NCBI GenBank assembly: GCA_951406725.2
Contig: OX597821.1
Coordinates: 26,598,001 to 26,662,000, forward strand
From: Octopus vulgaris
Taxonomy: Eukaryota
Direction of reading: 5' to 3'
DNA: 64,000 nucleotides
This document shows positions 9,949-49,274 of the stretch, one piece after another. The notes under the pieces were generated by a model. The model saw only the letters and a program-made list of their open reading frames with translations. It did not search any database and had not been told where the DNA came from. Each line of letters begins with the position of its first letter. Position 1 is the first letter of the stretch. The translations under genes and the position numbers were made by a program.

Positions 9949-10710
9949 ATATTGGGCCATCCCATAAATAATGAAATTTTTTTATATTACTTTTCAGAAT
10001 TAAGATAAAGTTCTTTTTTAATCTAAATGATACTCTTCTTCATTTTCTACAATGCTCTTCCATCTATCTGGTAGACTTTTAAGGCTCCTCTTCCAAAATC
10101 CCCTTGTCCGTGACGAAAAATACTGCCCCAGTTCTGTTCTGACCTCGTCTAGAGAATTCATATTTTTTTCCGTCCAAATGATTTTGAAGACTGCGACATA
10201 ACAGATTATCGGACGGGGCAATGTCCGGCGAATATGGTGGGTGGGCAGGGGAAGGTTCATTCGTGAGACGTGACAGCAACGAAGAGCACACATTCACACT
10301 CTGCACGCGATTAGACTCGGAAAGTTTGTGAGGAACCCATTGACCCAAATTTCTGACTTTTCCGATGGCACGCAGGAGTTAATGAATGGTTGAATGACCT
10401 AATCGAAGCTTCTCTACTAGTTCCACAACACTTACAGTGGGATTTTGTTTCACCTGGGTTTGCAGGACGTCCTCGTCGAGCTCTACAGATCTTCCAGGAC
10501 GAGGCTCATCTTCTAGGCTGTAATTTCAAGCTCGGAATTTCTGGAACCACCGTTCACACTGGCTTACGCTTATTGTCCGATTCCCATATACTGTATTAAT
10601 ATCCATCGCACTTTCCGTTGTGTTGTTGCCATTATTGAACGCATAAAGCAAAATATGCCGAATATGCTTCTTTGTCACTGCCATTAAAGTTTTGAAAAAA
10701 TAACTGTTAA
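9949..10710 (-). mobile_element. Decayed mariner transposon
   Basis: Fragments HIRHILLYAF...CERWFQKFR, GQWVPHKLSE, HPPYSPDIAPSD and LPDRWKSIVENEEEY. TIR-like end TATTGGGCCATCCCATAAATAATG. Confidence 0.85.
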
Positions 10711-10844
10711 TACATACATACATGCATATATACAAACACGAGGCGTTTGAATATCTGGAGCACTTCAAAGTGAAGCCTATACATTGGAAAAAATATTTTT
10801 CCTTATACTCGCCGAAATTGCGAGGATGACCCGGTTCTTGACTG

Positions 10845-10967
10845 AAGATAAAAGGCTTCGAGTGACCCGTCCTTGTTTTTTTGTATCGTCTATCTGGATG
10901 TTTTGTTGTCCCTTTTTGCATCACTTAGTTGTCCGGATGTTTTGCATTCTTGTCCCATTTTGTATCT

Positions 10968-18893: not shown

Positions 18894-19784
18894 TGCTGGT
18901 TTGTGCAACAAAGTTGAATAGATCAACGTCTGGACAGTAGTAAGCTGAACTGAAGATCAAACTTCAATTCTTGAAGATTTTCTCCAAACGAGCAAGAACG
19001 TACAAGAAAACGGAGATTAGTATCAGCTTGACAGTGGATCCATGGTTTCGGAAAAGGATTAACTAGAGAGCAGGCTGGTTTGTTTTTTATTTGCATCTTC
19101 TAGATGTTTTAAAAGTAGTTCACATCCAAATTCACTAGATATGCATATAAAATGTGCCAACAAGGCAACCTAAACGACCTTGGTTGACGTGTTTGAATTA
19201 GCAGCTAAATATCTATAAAGTTAAACATTAGCATCTAGAAAAGTGGGAGAACGTATTTCACTAACGTGATTCTCAATATGGCATTTGGAGAAAAAGAAAA
19301 GACCCGCATGCTCAGCTGTAAAACGTTTTGAGTGTAACTGATAAGAGTTGACCCGTAAGAAATATAACGACAACGCAGACATGAAGTTAAAAAAATTGTG
19401 TCCGAAAACTAGTCTATGACAAATGACAAAATACTATAATGATATACGAGATATCGAATTTCCAAAAACAATAGTTATTCAGAACAGCAACACCATTCAC
19501 ATAGCAGTAACTGTAATAATGAGCTGTAGAGTACAAACAACACATGTACACACACACACACGCGTATACATATAAGAATAGAGAAATAAACAAAAGCATT
19601 ACTACATAGCTTGTTAGGACACACAGAGTTGTTTACTCTTGGGATTATATAATAAACTGTATTCGTTATACACGTTACTGTAACAGATATAGCAGACCAC
19701 GTTTACTGGAGTTCCGAGCGACACTATTTCCGAGAATATCAGAGTGGAGGAGAAGATTAGTAAGTTGTATTGAAATGCTAAATT

Positions 19785-28897: not shown

Positions 28898-29043
28898 ATG
28901 ACAAGTTATATCCATGAACCAGGTCGAATACCAGCTGTTTGGCAAACGATTCCTGAGAAACTAAAATGCTTGGCGGAAGAGCAGCCAAACAAATTAGCAT
29001 TTGTTGTATATAAAGAAAAAGACGATCGACAGCAATTGACGCG
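28898..29043 (+). CDS. Gene A coding exon 1: ANL-superfamily acyl-CoA synthetase-like (ACSF2/luciferase-like) enzyme
   Basis: ATG at 28898 gives [22 protein letters not shown]...RQQLTR. Donor CG|GTAACT at 29044, phase 2, matching acceptor TTTTCAG|A at 29612. Homologous to the gene B exon, also 146 nt. Confidence 0.93.
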
Positions 29044-29118
29044 GTAACTATCTATCTATCTGTCTATCTGTCTATGCGCCTGTCTCTCTGTCGATCTATC
29101 TGTCTGTCTGTCCCTTCG

Positions 29119-29200
<82 letters not shown>

Positions 29201-29278
29201 AGTCTGTCTGTCTGTGCGCCTGTCTCTCTGTCGATTTATCAGTCTGTCTGTCTGTCCCTTCGTCTGTCCATCTGTCCA

Positions 29279-29313
<35 letters not shown>

Positions 29314-29612
29314 CTCCTACTATCTGTCAGTCAATCAATCTATTTGTCTGTCCGTCTGTCTGACAGTTTGTTGCTCATTTCTTTTTTTCCGTTTTCTCCC
29401 CTTCATTTCTAATGTGTTAGCCGTTTTCTTCTTATATAATCTCGGGTTTCTTATTCTATTTGGAGGCTTTGAGAGAGAGAGAGAGAGAGCATCAGTTAGT
29501 GAGGCATAATATTTCCAGTAGTATTAAGAGTAATTAAAAAAGATGATGTTAGATCTCACCAATGCCTTGATATGTACACTATCTCACTTCTACCTTCCAT
29601 ATATATTTTCAG
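29044..29612 (+). other. Gene A intron (569 nt, phase 2), rich in (CTAT)/(CTGT) repeats
   Basis: GT..AG ends. Splicing gives the codon CGA (Arg) and a continuous 549-aa frame. Confidence 0.9.
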
Positions 29613-31116
29613 AAAAGAGGTGTATGACGGTACTGTGAAGTTTGCAAAAGCTCTTGTTAAGTTAGGCGTTAAGAAAGGAGATCACGTCGCTTTATGTATA
29701 TCCAACTGTGTAGACCTCATAATCTACGATACCGGAATTATAATGGCCGGAGCAGTTTCATTGAGGCTGAGTCTAAAGTCAGGAGATTTTAAAGACATTT
29801 TTTCCGGATGCAAAGCGGTGATATTTGACTCAAAAGATTCACTGGATAAATTTTGTGCAATTGCTCAAATTTCCGATGACGGTAAAGTAACTAGCGAAAT
29901 ATATCCGGAATTGAAGTTTGTCATCAATATATCCAACACATATTGCCCATCCAACGTTCTATCTGCCACAAACCTTATGTTGAATATCAATGACAGTGAG
30001 CAAGTCGACTTACCTAATTTGGACCCAGAAGACATCGCATTTATTTGCCAAACTTCCGGTAGTACAGGCCGACCCAAAAATATCTATCACACACATTATA
30101 ACTGGTTGAATAGCATAGTACATGCCATGGATGCAAGTAGTGTAACCTCAGATGATACAACATACAACACTCGTCCAATGATATACATCGGTGGATATCC
30201 ATTTGGGTTGTTTTCTGTTGGAACTACCCATGTAACTGGAAATGTTCAAATGCTAAACGACATTAAGAACTTAGAGTTTATTGAAAATATATGGAAAAAA
30301 GAAGGCTGTAATATACTTTGGCTTCTGCCACAGCATCTACAACTACTCAGAGACTGTGGGCATCGCGCAAAGGCTATTCTTACCGGTGGAGATATGCTTA
30401 CAAAAGAATCATTAATGCATTCCTTAAACTTTACTGAGCATATACAAATTGTGTATGGAAGTAGTGAAGCTACATTTTTAACTTCACGGGTATTTACAAA
30501 AAAAAATATTTCTGAACATCTTCCGAAAATGCTAGGGAGGCCTTTCCCCGATACAGAAATGAAGATTGTTGACGATAACGGAAAAACCGTTAATATAGGA
30601 GAGGTTGGCAATATTGAAGTTCGAAATAAATGGACAGCTAAAATAAACCTGGATGGCGATTCGACAAATACAAATGGCTGGCAGTCAATGTCAGATATAG
30701 GTTATATGACACCAGAGGGGGATTTTTTTCTAGTTGGAAGAAATACAGATTTTATCAAGAAGTCAACAGTGAAGGTACCTGTCAGACAAGTTGAGGAATA
30801 TGTCAGTCATCACCCTAGTGTAGAAGACGTAGTTGTGGTTCCGATACCGGATGAAGAAGTTGGTGAACGGGTGTGTGCGTGTATTACCATCCGAGATAAT
30901 CACGAATTCAATGAAGACGGGCTTAAAAAGTTCTGCTTGGAAATTATGCCACAGCAAAGCGGTTTTGATATTGTAACGCTGCACCCAGATTATTTCTTAC
31001 ATTTTACAAGCTTTCCATTATTAACCTCTCAGAAATTTGATAGAAGGTCAATTAAATCAACAGCAATTGCTTTAGTAGAAAAAAATATTAAGAAAAAAAA
31101 CTTTCTTCAGAACTGA
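29613..31116 (+). CDS. Gene A coding exon 2: AMP-binding and C-terminal domains (spliced protein 549 aa)
   Basis: Uninterrupted ORF with A3 P-loop QTSGSTGRPK, A5 YGSSE, A7 SDIG, A8 GRNTDFIK and A10 PLLTSQKF. Confidence 0.96.
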
Positions 31117-33155: not shown

Positions 33156-33990
33156 GGTACCGCGCAAAAGTCTTCGACTACTTTAAACAATTGTAAATTT
33201 CAATTAATTACCAACTTATACGTGGATGTTTCGCACTGCGCTTTTTTACAGATGAAACATTGACCCTGTCGGAGTCATTTCTATACCTAATCATTATATT
33301 TTGTAGTAGTGGTTCCAAATGAGAGAGGAAAATGCGAGACGACCACCGAAAATGACCATGCAAAACCTTTCGGCCACCTCACATAAACCAATCAAGATAC
33401 ACTGTGTTAAAACAGAAAAAAAATGTCTATAGTGAAAATTTATTACATAATGTTCATTTGAATAAGTTACTGTATATTGTTAATATTTCATGTAGCTTCT
33501 CTTAGCTTGAATAATTGCTTCAATGCATACAAATCCTTCACGATCTTCATAGGTATGAGATACCATTCTCTGTGGCTGAGCTCCCACAACTCTTCAAGAT
33601 TGCTTGGATTCTTCTGACGAACTCTTCTCTTTACTTCTGTCCACATTTGCTCGATGATATTTAAGACAGGGCTCTGAGCTGGGCAATCTGTCAATAAGGT
33701 AACACCTTTATCAGCCAGACTCTGTTGTGTTGCACGGGATCTGTGACATGGAATTCTGTCATGCTGAAAAATCTCACCTCCATCCAAGTCTGGTATCAAA
33801 TTCTCCTTCAGCAACTGGATGTATTTTGGCACTGTTCAAGTTACCGTCAATTTTAGCCAAATTTCTTGAACCACCACTTTTTATGTATCCCCAAAGCATC
33901 AGACTCTTACTCGCAAACTTCACTGTTTTCGTCGTGAAGCGTGGGTTGTTTTGCTTTCCTGGAGGCCTTCTGACAAAGCGAAACGACACA
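33156..33990 (-). mobile_element. Tc1-like transposon 3' half
   Basis: LMLWGYIKSGG...IFQHDRIPCH...PAQSPVLNIIEQMW (DDE catalytic region), frameshifted. Confidence 0.88.
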
Positions 33991-44824: not shown

Positions 44825-46310
44825 TTACTTTCCGTATGATTCCTTCACCATTTCAATTGCAGAACACTTTATGGAAGGTTTGTTATATTTTTGACTGGGA
44901 AGCTTTGGAAAGCTGGTAAAATGTAAGAAATAGTCCGGAATTATTGTTACATGGTCAAAATTACTTGGATGCGGCATTGTTTCTGTGCAGAATTTTGTTA
45001 AATCATCTCTGCTGAATTTGTGACCCGGTAGAATGGTAACACAGGCGCATATACATTCACCAAAGCTTTCATCTGGTATTGGTACCACAACCACTTCTGC
45101 AACGCTGGGGTGACGGCCAACGTATATTTCAATAGTTTTTAAGGATAACTTCACGGTAGACTTTTTAATAAAATCTACACTTCTACCTATCATTATGAGA
45201 TCACCATCAGGAGTCAATTTACAAATATCTGACGTAGGCATCCAACCCTTTTCTAAACAATTCCTTCCATCCTGAAATATTTTTTGCATCCAACCATTAC
45301 GAATGTACAGAGACCCAATGCTTCCGATGGGAACAACATTTTTGTTTTCATCAAGGATTTTAGCCTCTGAACCTGGAAGCAGTCGACCTAACATTCCTTC
45401 TACATGTTGCTCCATATCTTCTTTGGAGAATAGTCTCTGTGATGATACTAACGTTTCAGTACTTCCATATCCAAGGGAAAATTTGTCTGCCAGACGAAAA
45501 GAATTTTCAATCCAGTCTCTTGCAATTAAATCTCCTCCTGATATAATCCGTTTTACTCGGAAATCTGATTCTCTGATATATTTTAATCTCTGTGGAACTA
45601 CCCATACTACGTCACATTTTTCTGTCTTCCATAAATCTATAATGAAATCTATGTTTTCGTTATTATTTAGCAGTTTCACATCTCCCGTGACGTGTGTGCA
45701 GCCAATTGACAAAAACATTGACGGATAGCCAACAACATATCCCATTGGACGGCTACAATAAGCCTTATCTTTTTCATTGACGCCAACATCTGTGTAAAAT
45801 GTGTAAAATCCATTGATCCAGTTAAAATGTGAGTGACAAATTCGTTTAGGAACACCTGTTGAACCAGATGTTTGAGAAATTAGTGCAGTATCATCAGGAC
45901 TCATGGGGGGAAATATTATATCAGTTTTACTACTTACATCTTCCATCAACTTAGCTGCAGACAAAACATTTTCAGGACGCTCCGCTTCTGAGACAGCAAT
46001 GGCTAATCTCAAGTTTGGATATATTTCAGAGGAAACCTTCCCATTATCAGAAATGTCAGCGATTTTGAGGAAGTTTTCCCAAATATATTTGGAATCAAAT
46101 ACAACTAAACTGCAGCCATGTAATACCGTTTTAAAATCTGCCAATCCAAGCATTACTTTCACAGAAATTGCCCCAGCCATAATTATGCCGACCTCATATA
46201 TCAACCATTCAACACAGTTGGATACACTGTAGGCAACTAACTCTCCTTTCTGAATTCCTAAATTGATAAGAGCTTTGGCAAATTTTACAGCGCCATCGTA
46301 AACTTGTTTC
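44825..46310 (-). CDS. Gene B coding exon 2: ANL-superfamily acyl-CoA synthetase-like (ACSF2/luciferase-like) enzyme (spliced protein 543 aa)
   Basis: Intact ORF with QTSGSTGVPK, YGSTE, TSDIC, GRSVDFIK and PKLPSQKY. Acceptor TTTTATTTCAG|G at 46311, phase 2, at the same position as in gene A. Confidence 0.96.
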
Positions 46311-49128: not shown

Positions 49129-49274
49129 CGAGTTATCTCCTGCCGATTCTCTTTGTTTTTATAAACGACAAGGGCTGGTTTGTCAGGGTCATTTTCAGCA
49201 AGCTGGTACACGCGTTGCGGTATTGTTTGATACATGAAGGAGACTTTACTTGGACGGTGAATGTAACTGGCCAT
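49129..49274 (-). CDS. Gene B coding exon 1 (not in the ORF track)
   Basis: Reverse strand reads MASYIHRPSKVSFMYQTIPQRVYQLAENDPDKPALVVYKNKENRQEITR, aligning without gaps to gene A exon 1. 146 nt; in-frame TGA 33 nt upstream of the ATG. Confidence 0.93.

What the first reader, a model, noticed from the sequence alone, without database searches (positions are those of the whole stretch)
30736..30777. Both paralogues replace the conserved A8-loop glycine with Thr, plus shared A3/A7/A10 changes
Seen: A8 reads GRNTDFIKKSTVKV in gene A and GRSVDFIKKSTVKL in gene B (45146-45187), against the consensus GRxDDxIKxxGxxI. A10 is SQK instead of SGK, A7 is SD instead of GD, and A3 ends PKN/PKR instead of PKG. 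The ATP-binding and adenylation residues (TSGSTG, YGxxE, A7 Asp, A8 Arg, A10 Lys) are kept. Established: the A8 Gly (Gly524 in Salmonella Acs) lines the pantetheine tunnel, and bulkier residues there impair the thioester-forming half reaction but not adenylation. Inference: these enzymes may adenylate a substrate and then use a non-CoA acceptor (amine, alcohol or O2).
Basis: partly seen in the sequence, partly recalled or inferred. Interest (0 to 1): 0.75.

Follow-up and report, generated by a model that had tools for sequence, protein, structure and literature searches.

The report
Ancient invertebrate ligases with plugged CoA-pocket
Two intact octopus genes labelled 'acyl-CoA synthetase' belong to an old invertebrate enzyme family, related to the firefly squid's light-organ proteins, that keeps the ATP-activating residues but has changed several positions of the coenzyme A pocket, so these enzymes likely join an acid to some other partner, most likely an amino acid or similar amine.

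Summary
The window is Octopus vulgaris DNA with two intact two-exon ANL genes; gene A is spliced in three runs. Thr434 aligns without gaps to Gly409 of 4-chlorobenzoate-CoA ligase. Gly holds this site in 831 of 833 NRPS domains and 191 of 221 background homologues; none has Thr. The change is not local: 37 of 55 members of a clade spanning octopods, bivalves, a nemertean, an annelid and Nematostella have Thr, and squid wsluc1 and wsluc2 have Asp. Other CoA-contact positions also differ: a 5-8 residue insertion and bulky residues at the pocket, loss of the aromatic-Lys loop, and a near-invariant Arg236 at the position that lines the amine tunnel of the amide synthetase McbA. Adenylation residues are kept. 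Best reading (inferred, no assay): a CoA-independent ligase, about 65% for any non-CoA acceptor and 45% for an amide synthetase using an anionic amine. O2 is not implied, since beetle luciferases keep the Gly. wsluc share neither KST nor SQK; SQK marks only the A and B lineages. The A3 and A7 changes are weak evidence. Against: six bivalve-type members carry Gly, and the model adopts the thioester-type conformation.

The parts
28898..29043 (+). Gene A exon 1 (49 codons; no mitochondrial presequence visible, starts at the M-x-S-Y-x-H motif)
   Evidence: GT donor; spliced translation is identical to P0001 = CAI9726604.1; exon-1 letters appear as the loose end of contigs in 3 of 4 runs laid
29613..31116 (+). 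Gene A exon 2, rest of the 549-aa ANL enzyme (PF00501 + PF13193)
   Evidence: AlphaFold2 model mean pLDDT 86.4
49129..49274 (-). Gene B exon 1
   Evidence: GT..AG splice gives an open 543-aa protein, intron at the same position as in gene A
44825..46310 (-). Gene B exon 2; protein identical to A at 261 of 549 aligned columns, 70.5% to Argonauta P0014
30736..30777 (+). A8 motif of gene A; Thr434 (codon 30766-30768) at the pantetheine-tunnel Gly position
   Evidence: no difference in this stretch in 4 of 4 runs laid
45146..45187 (-). A8 motif of gene B; Thr434 (codon 45157-45155) aligned to CBL Gly409
30172..30174 (+). Arg236 of gene A (gene B 45751-45749), the residue before the A4 Pro; equivalent to McbA Ile197 / ShABS Ile202 of the amine tunnel
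   Evidence: Arg in 22 of 22 octopod and 27 of 32 other family sequences, 2 of 122 first-set background; McbA A4 letters seen; tunnel residues from PMC10804368
30220..30312 (+). Segment Gly252-Asn282 with a family-specific insertion (gene B 45703-45611); predicted short helix 260-263 near the entry of the CoA pocket
   Evidence: 31 residues in 22 of 22 octopod, 30-33 in 32 of 33 other family, 24-29 in 221 of 221 background; helix in model
30322..30336 (+). Leu286 and Gln289/His290 (gene B Val286, Gln289/Arg290): bulky residues at the pocket floor where background has Gly/Ala/Ser and Thr/Ser/Ala
   Evidence: AfFACL Ala276 lies here with an inferred 2-residue tag offset (PMC8460268)
30976..30990 (+). 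C-terminal loop Thr504-Leu-His-Pro-Asp508 (gene B 44947-44933) in place of aromatic-Lys-x-Pro-Arg/Lys
   Evidence: aromatic 504 in 210 of 221 background and 0 of 21 octopod; Lys505 192 of 220 against 0 of 20; Asp508 in 20 of 20 octopod
31027..31035 (+). A10 S-Q-K of gene A (gene B 44896-44888); catalytic Lys523 kept
   Evidence: Lys in 52 of 52 family sequences that reach it
30052..30081 (+). A3 P-loop of gene A, ending PKN (gene B 45871-45842, PKR)
30691..30696 (+). A7 S-D of gene A (gene B 45232-45227); Asp410 kept
   Evidence: Asp in 55 of 55 family sequences

Best explanation
Genes A and B are intact members of an old invertebrate clade of ANL adenylating enzymes that likely make an acyl-adenylate from ATP and a carboxylic acid and likely transfer the acyl group not to coenzyme A but to a small nucleophile, most likely an anionic amine such as an amino acid, in the manner of amide-bond synthetases. 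Step 1 (inferred from conserved residues): P-loop, Glu334, Asp410, Arg425 and Lys523 form acyl-AMP. Step 2 (predicted by the model): the C-terminal domain rotates and brings the A8 loop to the active site. Step 3 (inferred): Thr434, bulky 286/289/290, the inserted helix and the loss of the cationic-aromatic loop leave no ordinary route or anchor for CoA. Step 4 (most speculative): Arg236 at the tunnel wall binds the acceptor's carboxylate or sulfonate, mirroring the acidic residues by which McbA attracts cationic amines. Odds: about 0.65 for any non-CoA acceptor, 0.45 for this amide-synthetase form. The acid and the acceptor are unknown.
For: Thr434 = CBL Gly409 without gaps; G409L removes only the thioester step (PMC6122825, passages). 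Gly in 831 of 833 NRPS domains; Thr in 0 of 221 background and 37 of 55 family sequences. Thr occurs in Nematostella, Lineus, Owenia, bivalves and octopods, so it is a kept state, not decay. Adenylation residues are kept in 46-55 of 55. Further changes fall on the other two CoA-binding elements that PMC8460268 names (parts 1-3): the N-terminal pocket (spacing Gly242 to His290 is 48 in 22 of 22 octopods, as from EcFAAL Met231 to Phe279, against 44-46 in 208 of 221 background) and the cationic C-terminal loop. Asn at the CoA-contacting index 185 (PMC6122825) is in 145 of 220 background and 0 of 22 octopods. Arg236 sits at McbA Ile197 / ShABS Ile202 of the amine tunnel; McbA lacks the CoA-phosphate residues and has acidic ones at the entrance (PMC6282839). 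wsluc1 and wsluc2, crystal proteins of a light reaction that needs ATP, Mg and O2 with no CoA named, also lack the Gly. Gene A is spliced in contigs of three studies.
Against: No member has been assayed in any paper that my searches returned. Six of 33 non-octopod members carry Gly at this site, in two separate places of the tree, so the site can toggle. The AlphaFold2 model resembles the thioester-type conformation (TM 0.72-0.79 to such structures, 0.59-0.66 to the others), so rotation is not predicted to be blocked. Gly242 in gene A and Thr235 are small, unlike the FAAL blockers Met231 and Trp224. 27 of 221 background proteins have Ala here. The background is mostly unassayed and not independent, and all features other than A8 were picked after contrasting family and background. 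Arg236 could instead bind CoA phosphates or pair with the family-specific Asp107. wsluc2 has Cys for Arg236.
Confidence: 0.45

Rival explanations
1. They are ordinary acyl- or aryl-CoA ligases with a rebuilt CoA site: Thr434 points away from the tunnel, and Arg236, Lys432 and Lys436 replace the lost phosphate-binding residues.
For: Database names (automatic); thioester-type conformation of the model; Gly in 6 of 33 non-octopod members without restoration of the other features; Lys432 in 22 of 22 octopods; CoA contacts vary widely among ANL structures (PMC8460268).
Against: No Thr among 833 NRPS domains, 221 background homologues or the solved enzymes whose loop was printed. Several separate CoA determinants differ together: 52 of 55 family sequences show at least 4 of 5 features, 0 of 221 background do (features chosen after the fact). 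Asp508 puts negative charge in the loop.
Confidence: 0.3
2. They work like fatty acyl-AMP ligases: they reject CoA and load an acyl carrier protein of an animal FAS or PKS through an alternative pocket.
For: FAAL-like spacing (48) and bulky residues at the Phe279-equivalent position; A4 Pro237 (EcFAAL Pro226) is kept in A and B.
Against: No FAAL-specific insertion between A5 and A6 (48 residues in octopods, 41-58 in background); no Trp224/Met231 equivalents; no PKS or carrier gene found in the window (0 of 54 ORFs scanned).
Confidence: 0.1
3. They are dark oxygenases like the proposed wsluc chemistry: adenylation followed by O2 attack or an intramolecular reaction.
For: Closest studied relatives are wsluc1-4 (up to 40% identity to O. 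bimaculoides proteins, PMC4899746); Lys431 aligns to the A8 Lys of luciferase.
Against: The luciferase shown keeps the A8 Gly; that G446I impairs light emission is recalled, not read here. wsluc have Asp, not Thr. wsluc activity was not shown recombinantly in the 2016 paper. The family is widespread in animals not known to glow (recalled).
Confidence: 0.1
4. They are degenerate or structural proteins (crystallin-like), and the Thr reflects relaxed selection on the second half reaction.
For: wsluc form crystals; one octopod subclade (P0017-P0021) has lost the A5 YG.
Against: Catalytic residues are invariant or nearly so in 55 sequences; Thr, not a random residue, is the commonest state from Nematostella to octopus; A and B each have an Argonauta orthologue.
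Confidence: 0.05

Closest known systems
Watasenia scintillans wsluc1-4 (PMC4899746)
   Same: Same family: up to 40% identity to O. bimaculoides proteins; same N-terminal S-Y-x-H motif, 31-residue inserted segment (wsluc3), Arg236 in wsluc1 and wsluc3, bulky 286, no A8 Gly in wsluc1 and wsluc2 (read by eye).
   Different: Asp instead of Thr at the Gly site (KND, KTD); A10 keeps Gly (AGK, TGK); A7 is TDD; they form light-organ crystals. The A8 Gly site of wsluc3 and wsluc4 was not seen.
ACSF2 / PRK12583-type fatty acyl-CoA ligases
   Same: Fold and adenylation motifs; best NCBIfam matches are this group, all below cut-off; source of the database names.
   Different: About 25% identity; separate branch (SH-aLRT 99); they have GG at A8, Asn at index 185, the aromatic-Lys loop, no insertion and no Arg236.
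4-chlorobenzoate-CoA ligase and Acs
   Same: Gap-free A8 register, A8 Arg and A7 Asp kept.
   Different: Gly408-Gly409 is Ser-Thr; hinge Asp402 is Thr/Val; Arg87 position is Lys in A and Gly in B (by motif).
Amide-bond synthetases McbA / ShABS
   Same: Stand-alone ANL fold; thioester-type second conformation; loss of CoA-phosphate residues; charged residues at the acceptor tunnel.
   Different: Bacterial, about 20% identity; their tunnel is acidic (Glu400, Asp463, Glu221) while this family has Arg236; McbA residue 401 (the Gly site) was not displayed.
Fatty acyl-AMP ligases (FAAL)
   Same: [quoted passage not shown]
   Different: No FAAL-specific insertion; no Trp224/Met231 equivalents; separate origin presumed, not tested in a tree.
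Beetle luciferases
   Same: ANL fold; A8 Lys kept.
   Different: They keep the A8 Gly; 18-19% identity; independent lineage (PMC4899746).

Membership tests
ANL superfamily (class I adenylate-forming) | AMP-binding and AMP-binding_C domains, two-domain fold | tested here: met
   PF00501 and PF13193 above cut-off in both genes; Z about 40 to ANL structures
ANL superfamily (class I adenylate-forming) | Five invariant residues Glu (A5), Gly (A6), Asp (A7), Arg (A8), Lys (A10) | tested here: met
   Glu334, Gly381, Asp410, Arg425 in 55 of 55 and Lys523 in 52 of 52; list from PMC6122825
Acyl/aryl-CoA ligases | A8 Gly lining the pantetheine tunnel | tested here: not met
   Thr434 at CBL Gly409
Acyl/aryl-CoA ligases | Open N-terminal pocket and cationic C-terminal loop for CoA phosphates | tested here: not met
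   By sequence only: insertion, bulky 286/289/290, Thr-Leu/Ile-x-Pro-Asp loop; no CoA was modelled
Acyl/aryl-CoA ligases | Formation of acyl-CoA | not testable with these tools
   needs an assay
ACSF2 orthologues | Grouping with ACSF2/PRK12583-type proteins; mitochondrial presequence | tested here: inconclusive
   Separate from the bacterial PRK12583-like outgroup, below NCBIfam cut-offs, no presequence visible; no true animal ACSF2 was in the tree
wsluc family (coleoid ANL clade) | Shared diagnostic motifs with wsluc1-3 | tested here: met
   Arg236, 31-residue segment, bulky 286 and non-Gly A8 read from the supplement; no alignment or tree with wsluc was run
wsluc family (coleoid ANL clade) | Luciferase activity or crystal formation | not testable with these tools
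   not shown even for recombinant wsluc in PMC4899746
Amide-bond synthetases (McbA type) | Loss of CoA-phosphate residues and a charged acceptor tunnel | tested here: inconclusive
   Loss seen; the charge is positive (Arg236), opposite to McbA
Amide-bond synthetases (McbA type) | Enzyme-catalysed amide formation at low amine excess | not testable with these tools
   needs an assay
FAAL | FAAL-specific insertion | tested here: not met
   A5-A6 length 48 in octopods, within the background range
FAAL | FAAL-specific helix and blocked canonical pocket (Trp224, Met231, Phe279) | tested here: inconclusive
   Spacing and Phe279-type bulk present; Trp224 and Met231 types absent in gene A
FAAL | Proline-lined alternative pocket and transfer to holo-ACP | not tested

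The most novel reading that the evidence does not exclude
Cnidarians and lophotrochozoans share a large, misannotated family of stand-alone, CoA-independent amide-bond synthetases, marked by Thr at the A8 Gly site and an Arg in the acceptor tunnel and expanded in tandem in octopods. The firefly squid's luciferase came from this CoA-independent family and not, as in beetles, from a fatty acyl-CoA synthetase.
Probability: 0.35. Interest if true: 0.8.

Novelty: new variant of a known kind. Interest (0 to 1): 0.55.

Why it matters
Known animal ANL enzymes that avoid CoA are few (recalled: luciferases, Ebony, DIP2). If this clade uses another acceptor, many mollusc, annelid and cnidarian genes now called acyl-CoA synthetases point to unknown animal metabolites and to new amide-forming biocatalysts. 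It would also change the account of how squid light evolved, and it offers non-crystalline octopus relatives in which the ancestral chemistry of wsluc can be assayed. If they do use CoA, they would be natural exceptions to the rule that the A8 Gly is needed for thioester formation.

Tried and rejected
Sequencing or assembly error: rejected; the A8 stretch is unchanged in 4 of 4 runs laid and in O. sinensis and O. bimaculoides orthologues. RNA editing back to Gly: rejected; the codons are ACA and ACC, which A-to-I editing could turn into Ala only, and no such change shows in the contigs (contigs drop rare variants). Pseudogenes: rejected; both frames are open with GT-AG introns. Locus-specific change: rejected. 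The profile search of the 50% representatives was filled with multi-module NRPS (3 of the 150 listed were family members) and served only as a control set. No whole genome is held for this window, and the search for bacterial loci found no usable conserved stretch, so a prokaryotic member of the clade is neither shown nor excluded; none was seen among the named hits. No listed run is on record as RNA, and no tissue is given. No neighbouring enzyme was found: 2 of 54 ORFs had Pfam hits, both transposase pieces. Fold searches gave generic ANL matches that do not separate CoA from non-CoA enzymes. Full wsluc sequences are cut at 400 letters in the supplement and the paper's alignments are pictures. 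The 374-sequence alignment of PMC6122825 was unreadable and its entropy tables gave nothing usable. Primary papers on Acs Gly524 and luciferase Gly446 were not found. Earlier scan findings: nothing. No complex was predicted.

Full report
Source and gene anatomy. The window is Octopus vulgaris DNA: the spliced product of gene A is identical to P0001, CAI9726604.1, 549 aa. Gene A is 28898-29043 plus 29613-31116 (+). Gene B is 49274-49129 plus 46310-44825 (-), 543 aa. They are convergent, share the intron position and are identical at 261 of 549 columns. Each has an Argonauta orthologue (P0002, P0014), so the duplication is older than the Octopus-Argonauta split. Five listed O. vulgaris proteins lie on a contig of the same length, which suggests a larger cluster; only A and B are in the window. 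In 3 of 4 runs laid (three studies; RNA is the tool's guess) the contig stops at the acceptor and continues with exon-1 letters, while the fourth runs through the intron like DNA; none differs in 30736-30777.

The observation. Both A8 motifs, SQK, SD and PKN/PKR are as described. Thr434 aligns without gaps to Gly409 of 4-chlorobenzoate-CoA ligase (CBL) and, by equal range lengths, to Gly524 of Salmonella Acs, and to the A8 Gly of an ancestral luciferase and of 4-coumarate-CoA ligase. PMC6122825 (passages and section 19 read) states that CBL Gly409 lines the pantetheine tunnel, that G409L loses only the thioester step, and that this Gly is in at least 80% of 374 sequences. The Acs G524 mutant data are recalled; my searches did not find them. 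Controls: Gly in 831 of 833 NRPS A domains, Ala 1, Ser 1; in 221 stand-alone homologues Gly 191, Ala 27, others 3, Thr 0. These homologues are the listed part of three searches (120 of 1215, 120 of 783, 120 of 174), mostly unassayed and related to each other. Every solved enzyme whose loop was printed has Gly: oxalyl-CoA synthetase, 4CL, FadD8, CBL, four aryl-adenylating enzymes, LgrA and AncLamp.

It is a family trait. Profile searches recovered a clade with named members in octopods, gastropods, bivalves, Lineus, Owenia and Nematostella. In a quick tree of 60 rows, 41 rows fall on one side of a branch with SH-aLRT 99, with Glandiceps, two Amphiura proteins and 16 background rows on the other (no bootstrap). 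Of those 41 rows I count Thr 25, Gly 6, Ala 3, Ser 3, Pro 2, Ile 1, Val 1. Thr is in the cnidarian, nemertean, annelid and several bivalve branches, so Thr is the likely ancestral state and Gly was likely regained twice (inference; no formal reconstruction). In the full set 19 of 22 octopod and 18 of 33 other sequences have Thr. Left out of the counts: the three deuterostome proteins, which have Gly, and two partial proteins (P0068, P0072). I assigned the groups by score and tree. SQK/SEK is confined to the A and B lineages (5 of 20 octopod sequences). A3 PK-non-Gly is family-wide (18 of 22 and 33 of 33) but also occurs in 9bhy. A7 non-Gly is in 22 of 22 octopods and 13 of 33 others; PMC6122825 reports reduced, not lost, activity for that mutation.

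wsluc. From PMC4899746 I read parts 1-3 of 7, further passages, part 1 of the PDF supplement and parts of the spreadsheet. Counting back from the conserved His-Pro, the peptides of Table S3 put Asp at the Gly site in wsluc1 (KND) and wsluc2 (KTD); wsluc3 is not covered there. A10 is AGK in wsluc2 and TGK in wsluc3. The first 400 residues show Arg236 in wsluc1 and wsluc3 and Cys in wsluc2, bulky 286 in all three, and the 31-residue segment in wsluc3 (read by eye). So wsluc share the loss of Gly, not KST or SQK. The unseen alignment figure and the cut sequences bear on wsluc3 and wsluc4. The paper did not show activity of recombinant protein.

The rest of the CoA site. PMC8460268 (parts 1-3 of 9) names three CoA-binding elements: the A8 motif, the N-terminal pocket and Arg/Lys in a C-terminal loop. 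All three differ here. (i) A8: Ser-Thr for Gly-Gly. (ii) Pocket: the segment 252-282 is 31 residues in 22 of 22 octopods and 30-33 in 32 of 33 others, against 24-29 in 221 of 221 background; the model has a short helix there. The spacing 242 to 290 is 48, as from EcFAAL Met231 to Phe279, against 44-46 in 208 of 221 background. The mapping rests on the alignment to AfFACL and an inferred two-residue offset. Position 286 is Val/Leu/Ile/Met in 22 of 22 octopods (background Gly/Ala/Ser 178 of 221); 289 is Gln in 17 of 22 and Tyr in 18 of 33 others (background Thr/Ser/Ala 182 of 221). (iii) Loop: aromatic 504 and Lys505 are in 210 of 221 and 192 of 220 background, 0 of 21 and 0 of 20 octopods; 508 is Asp in 20 of 20 octopods but Lys/Arg in 23 of 32 other members. 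That CBL Phe473, Arg475 and Lys477 contact CoA in this loop is recalled. Arg236 is in 49 of 54 family sequences; McbA's A4 letters place it at Ile197, which PMC10804368 lists in the amine tunnel, with poor conversion for the ShABS I202A mutant. These features were found by contrasting the groups, so their joint separation (52 of 55 family with at least 4 of 5, 0 of 221 background) is not an independent test.

Results against. The model matches thioester-type structures better (TM 0.72-0.79, against 0.59-0.66; conformations assigned from titles and recall), so domain rotation is not predicted to be lost; McbA uses the same conformation for amidation. Six members have Gly while keeping the other family features. 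Gly242 (gene A) and Thr235 are not FAAL-type blockers, and there is no FAAL-specific insertion. Lys104 of gene A sits at CBL Arg87. 27 background proteins have Ala, most in one group related to TIGR03098, of unproven function.

Mechanism and odds. Shown: intact genes, a spliced form of A, kept adenylation residues, altered CoA-contact positions, wide and old distribution. Inferred: adenylation; exclusion of CoA (about 0.65); an anionic amine acceptor held by Arg236 (0.45). Rivals: rebuilt CoA ligase 0.30, FAAL-like carrier loading 0.10, dark oxygenase 0.10, structural protein 0.05. The Thr gives no reason to favour O2, since the luciferase shown keeps Gly.

Novelty. The octopus proteins are in databases as acyl-CoA synthetases and were noted as wsluc relatives in 2016 and 2020. 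Searches returned no paper that describes this clade, its CoA site or its chemistry; the library lacks most subscription journals. Verdict: a real feature and a new variant of a known kind; interest 0.55, and 0.8 if the CoA-independent family and the origin of wsluc from it are confirmed.

Noticed in passing
window 31092: A one-base insertion in a poly-A run (2 of 4 runs) shifts the last codons of gene A; the O. sinensis protein P0327 has a different, longer C-terminus that fits it.
   Followed up: partly
window 19693-19764 (+): The last 24 residues of the database protein P0016 (O. vulgaris paralogue lacking A9/A10) map here; probably a spurious last exon of a truncated or mis-modelled paralogue upstream of the window.
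   Followed up: no
P0017-P0021 (Octopus): An octopod subclade has lost the A5 Tyr-Gly and has Tyr for the A4 Pro and Arg or Ser before the A7 Asp; possibly a different substrate class or degenerate enzymes.
   Followed up: no
window 30745-30747 (+) and 45178-45176 (-): The A8 hinge residue (CBL Asp402) is Thr in gene A and Val in gene B; background has Lys/His/Asp in 200 of 221. It may alter domain rotation.
   Followed up: partly
P0022 (Tegillarca granosa, 838 aa): Holds two A7-A8 regions, both with Thr; likely two tandem genes fused in the annotation.
   Followed up: no
background proteins such as P0042, P0044, P0049: A group of metagenome ANL proteins related to TIGR03098 (below cut-off) has Ala at the A8 Gly site.
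   Followed up: no
window 10529-10924 (-) and 33491-33835 (-): Mariner/Tc1 transposase fragments (HTH_48, DDE_3).
   Followed up: no
family-wide: Asp107, Gly139, Pro245, Cys470, Cys472 of gene A: Further family-diagnostic residues; the Cys-x-Cys of the C-terminal domain and Asp107 are unexplained.
   Followed up: no
window 29050-29350 (+): The intron of gene A is largely a TATC/TGTC microsatellite.
   Followed up: no
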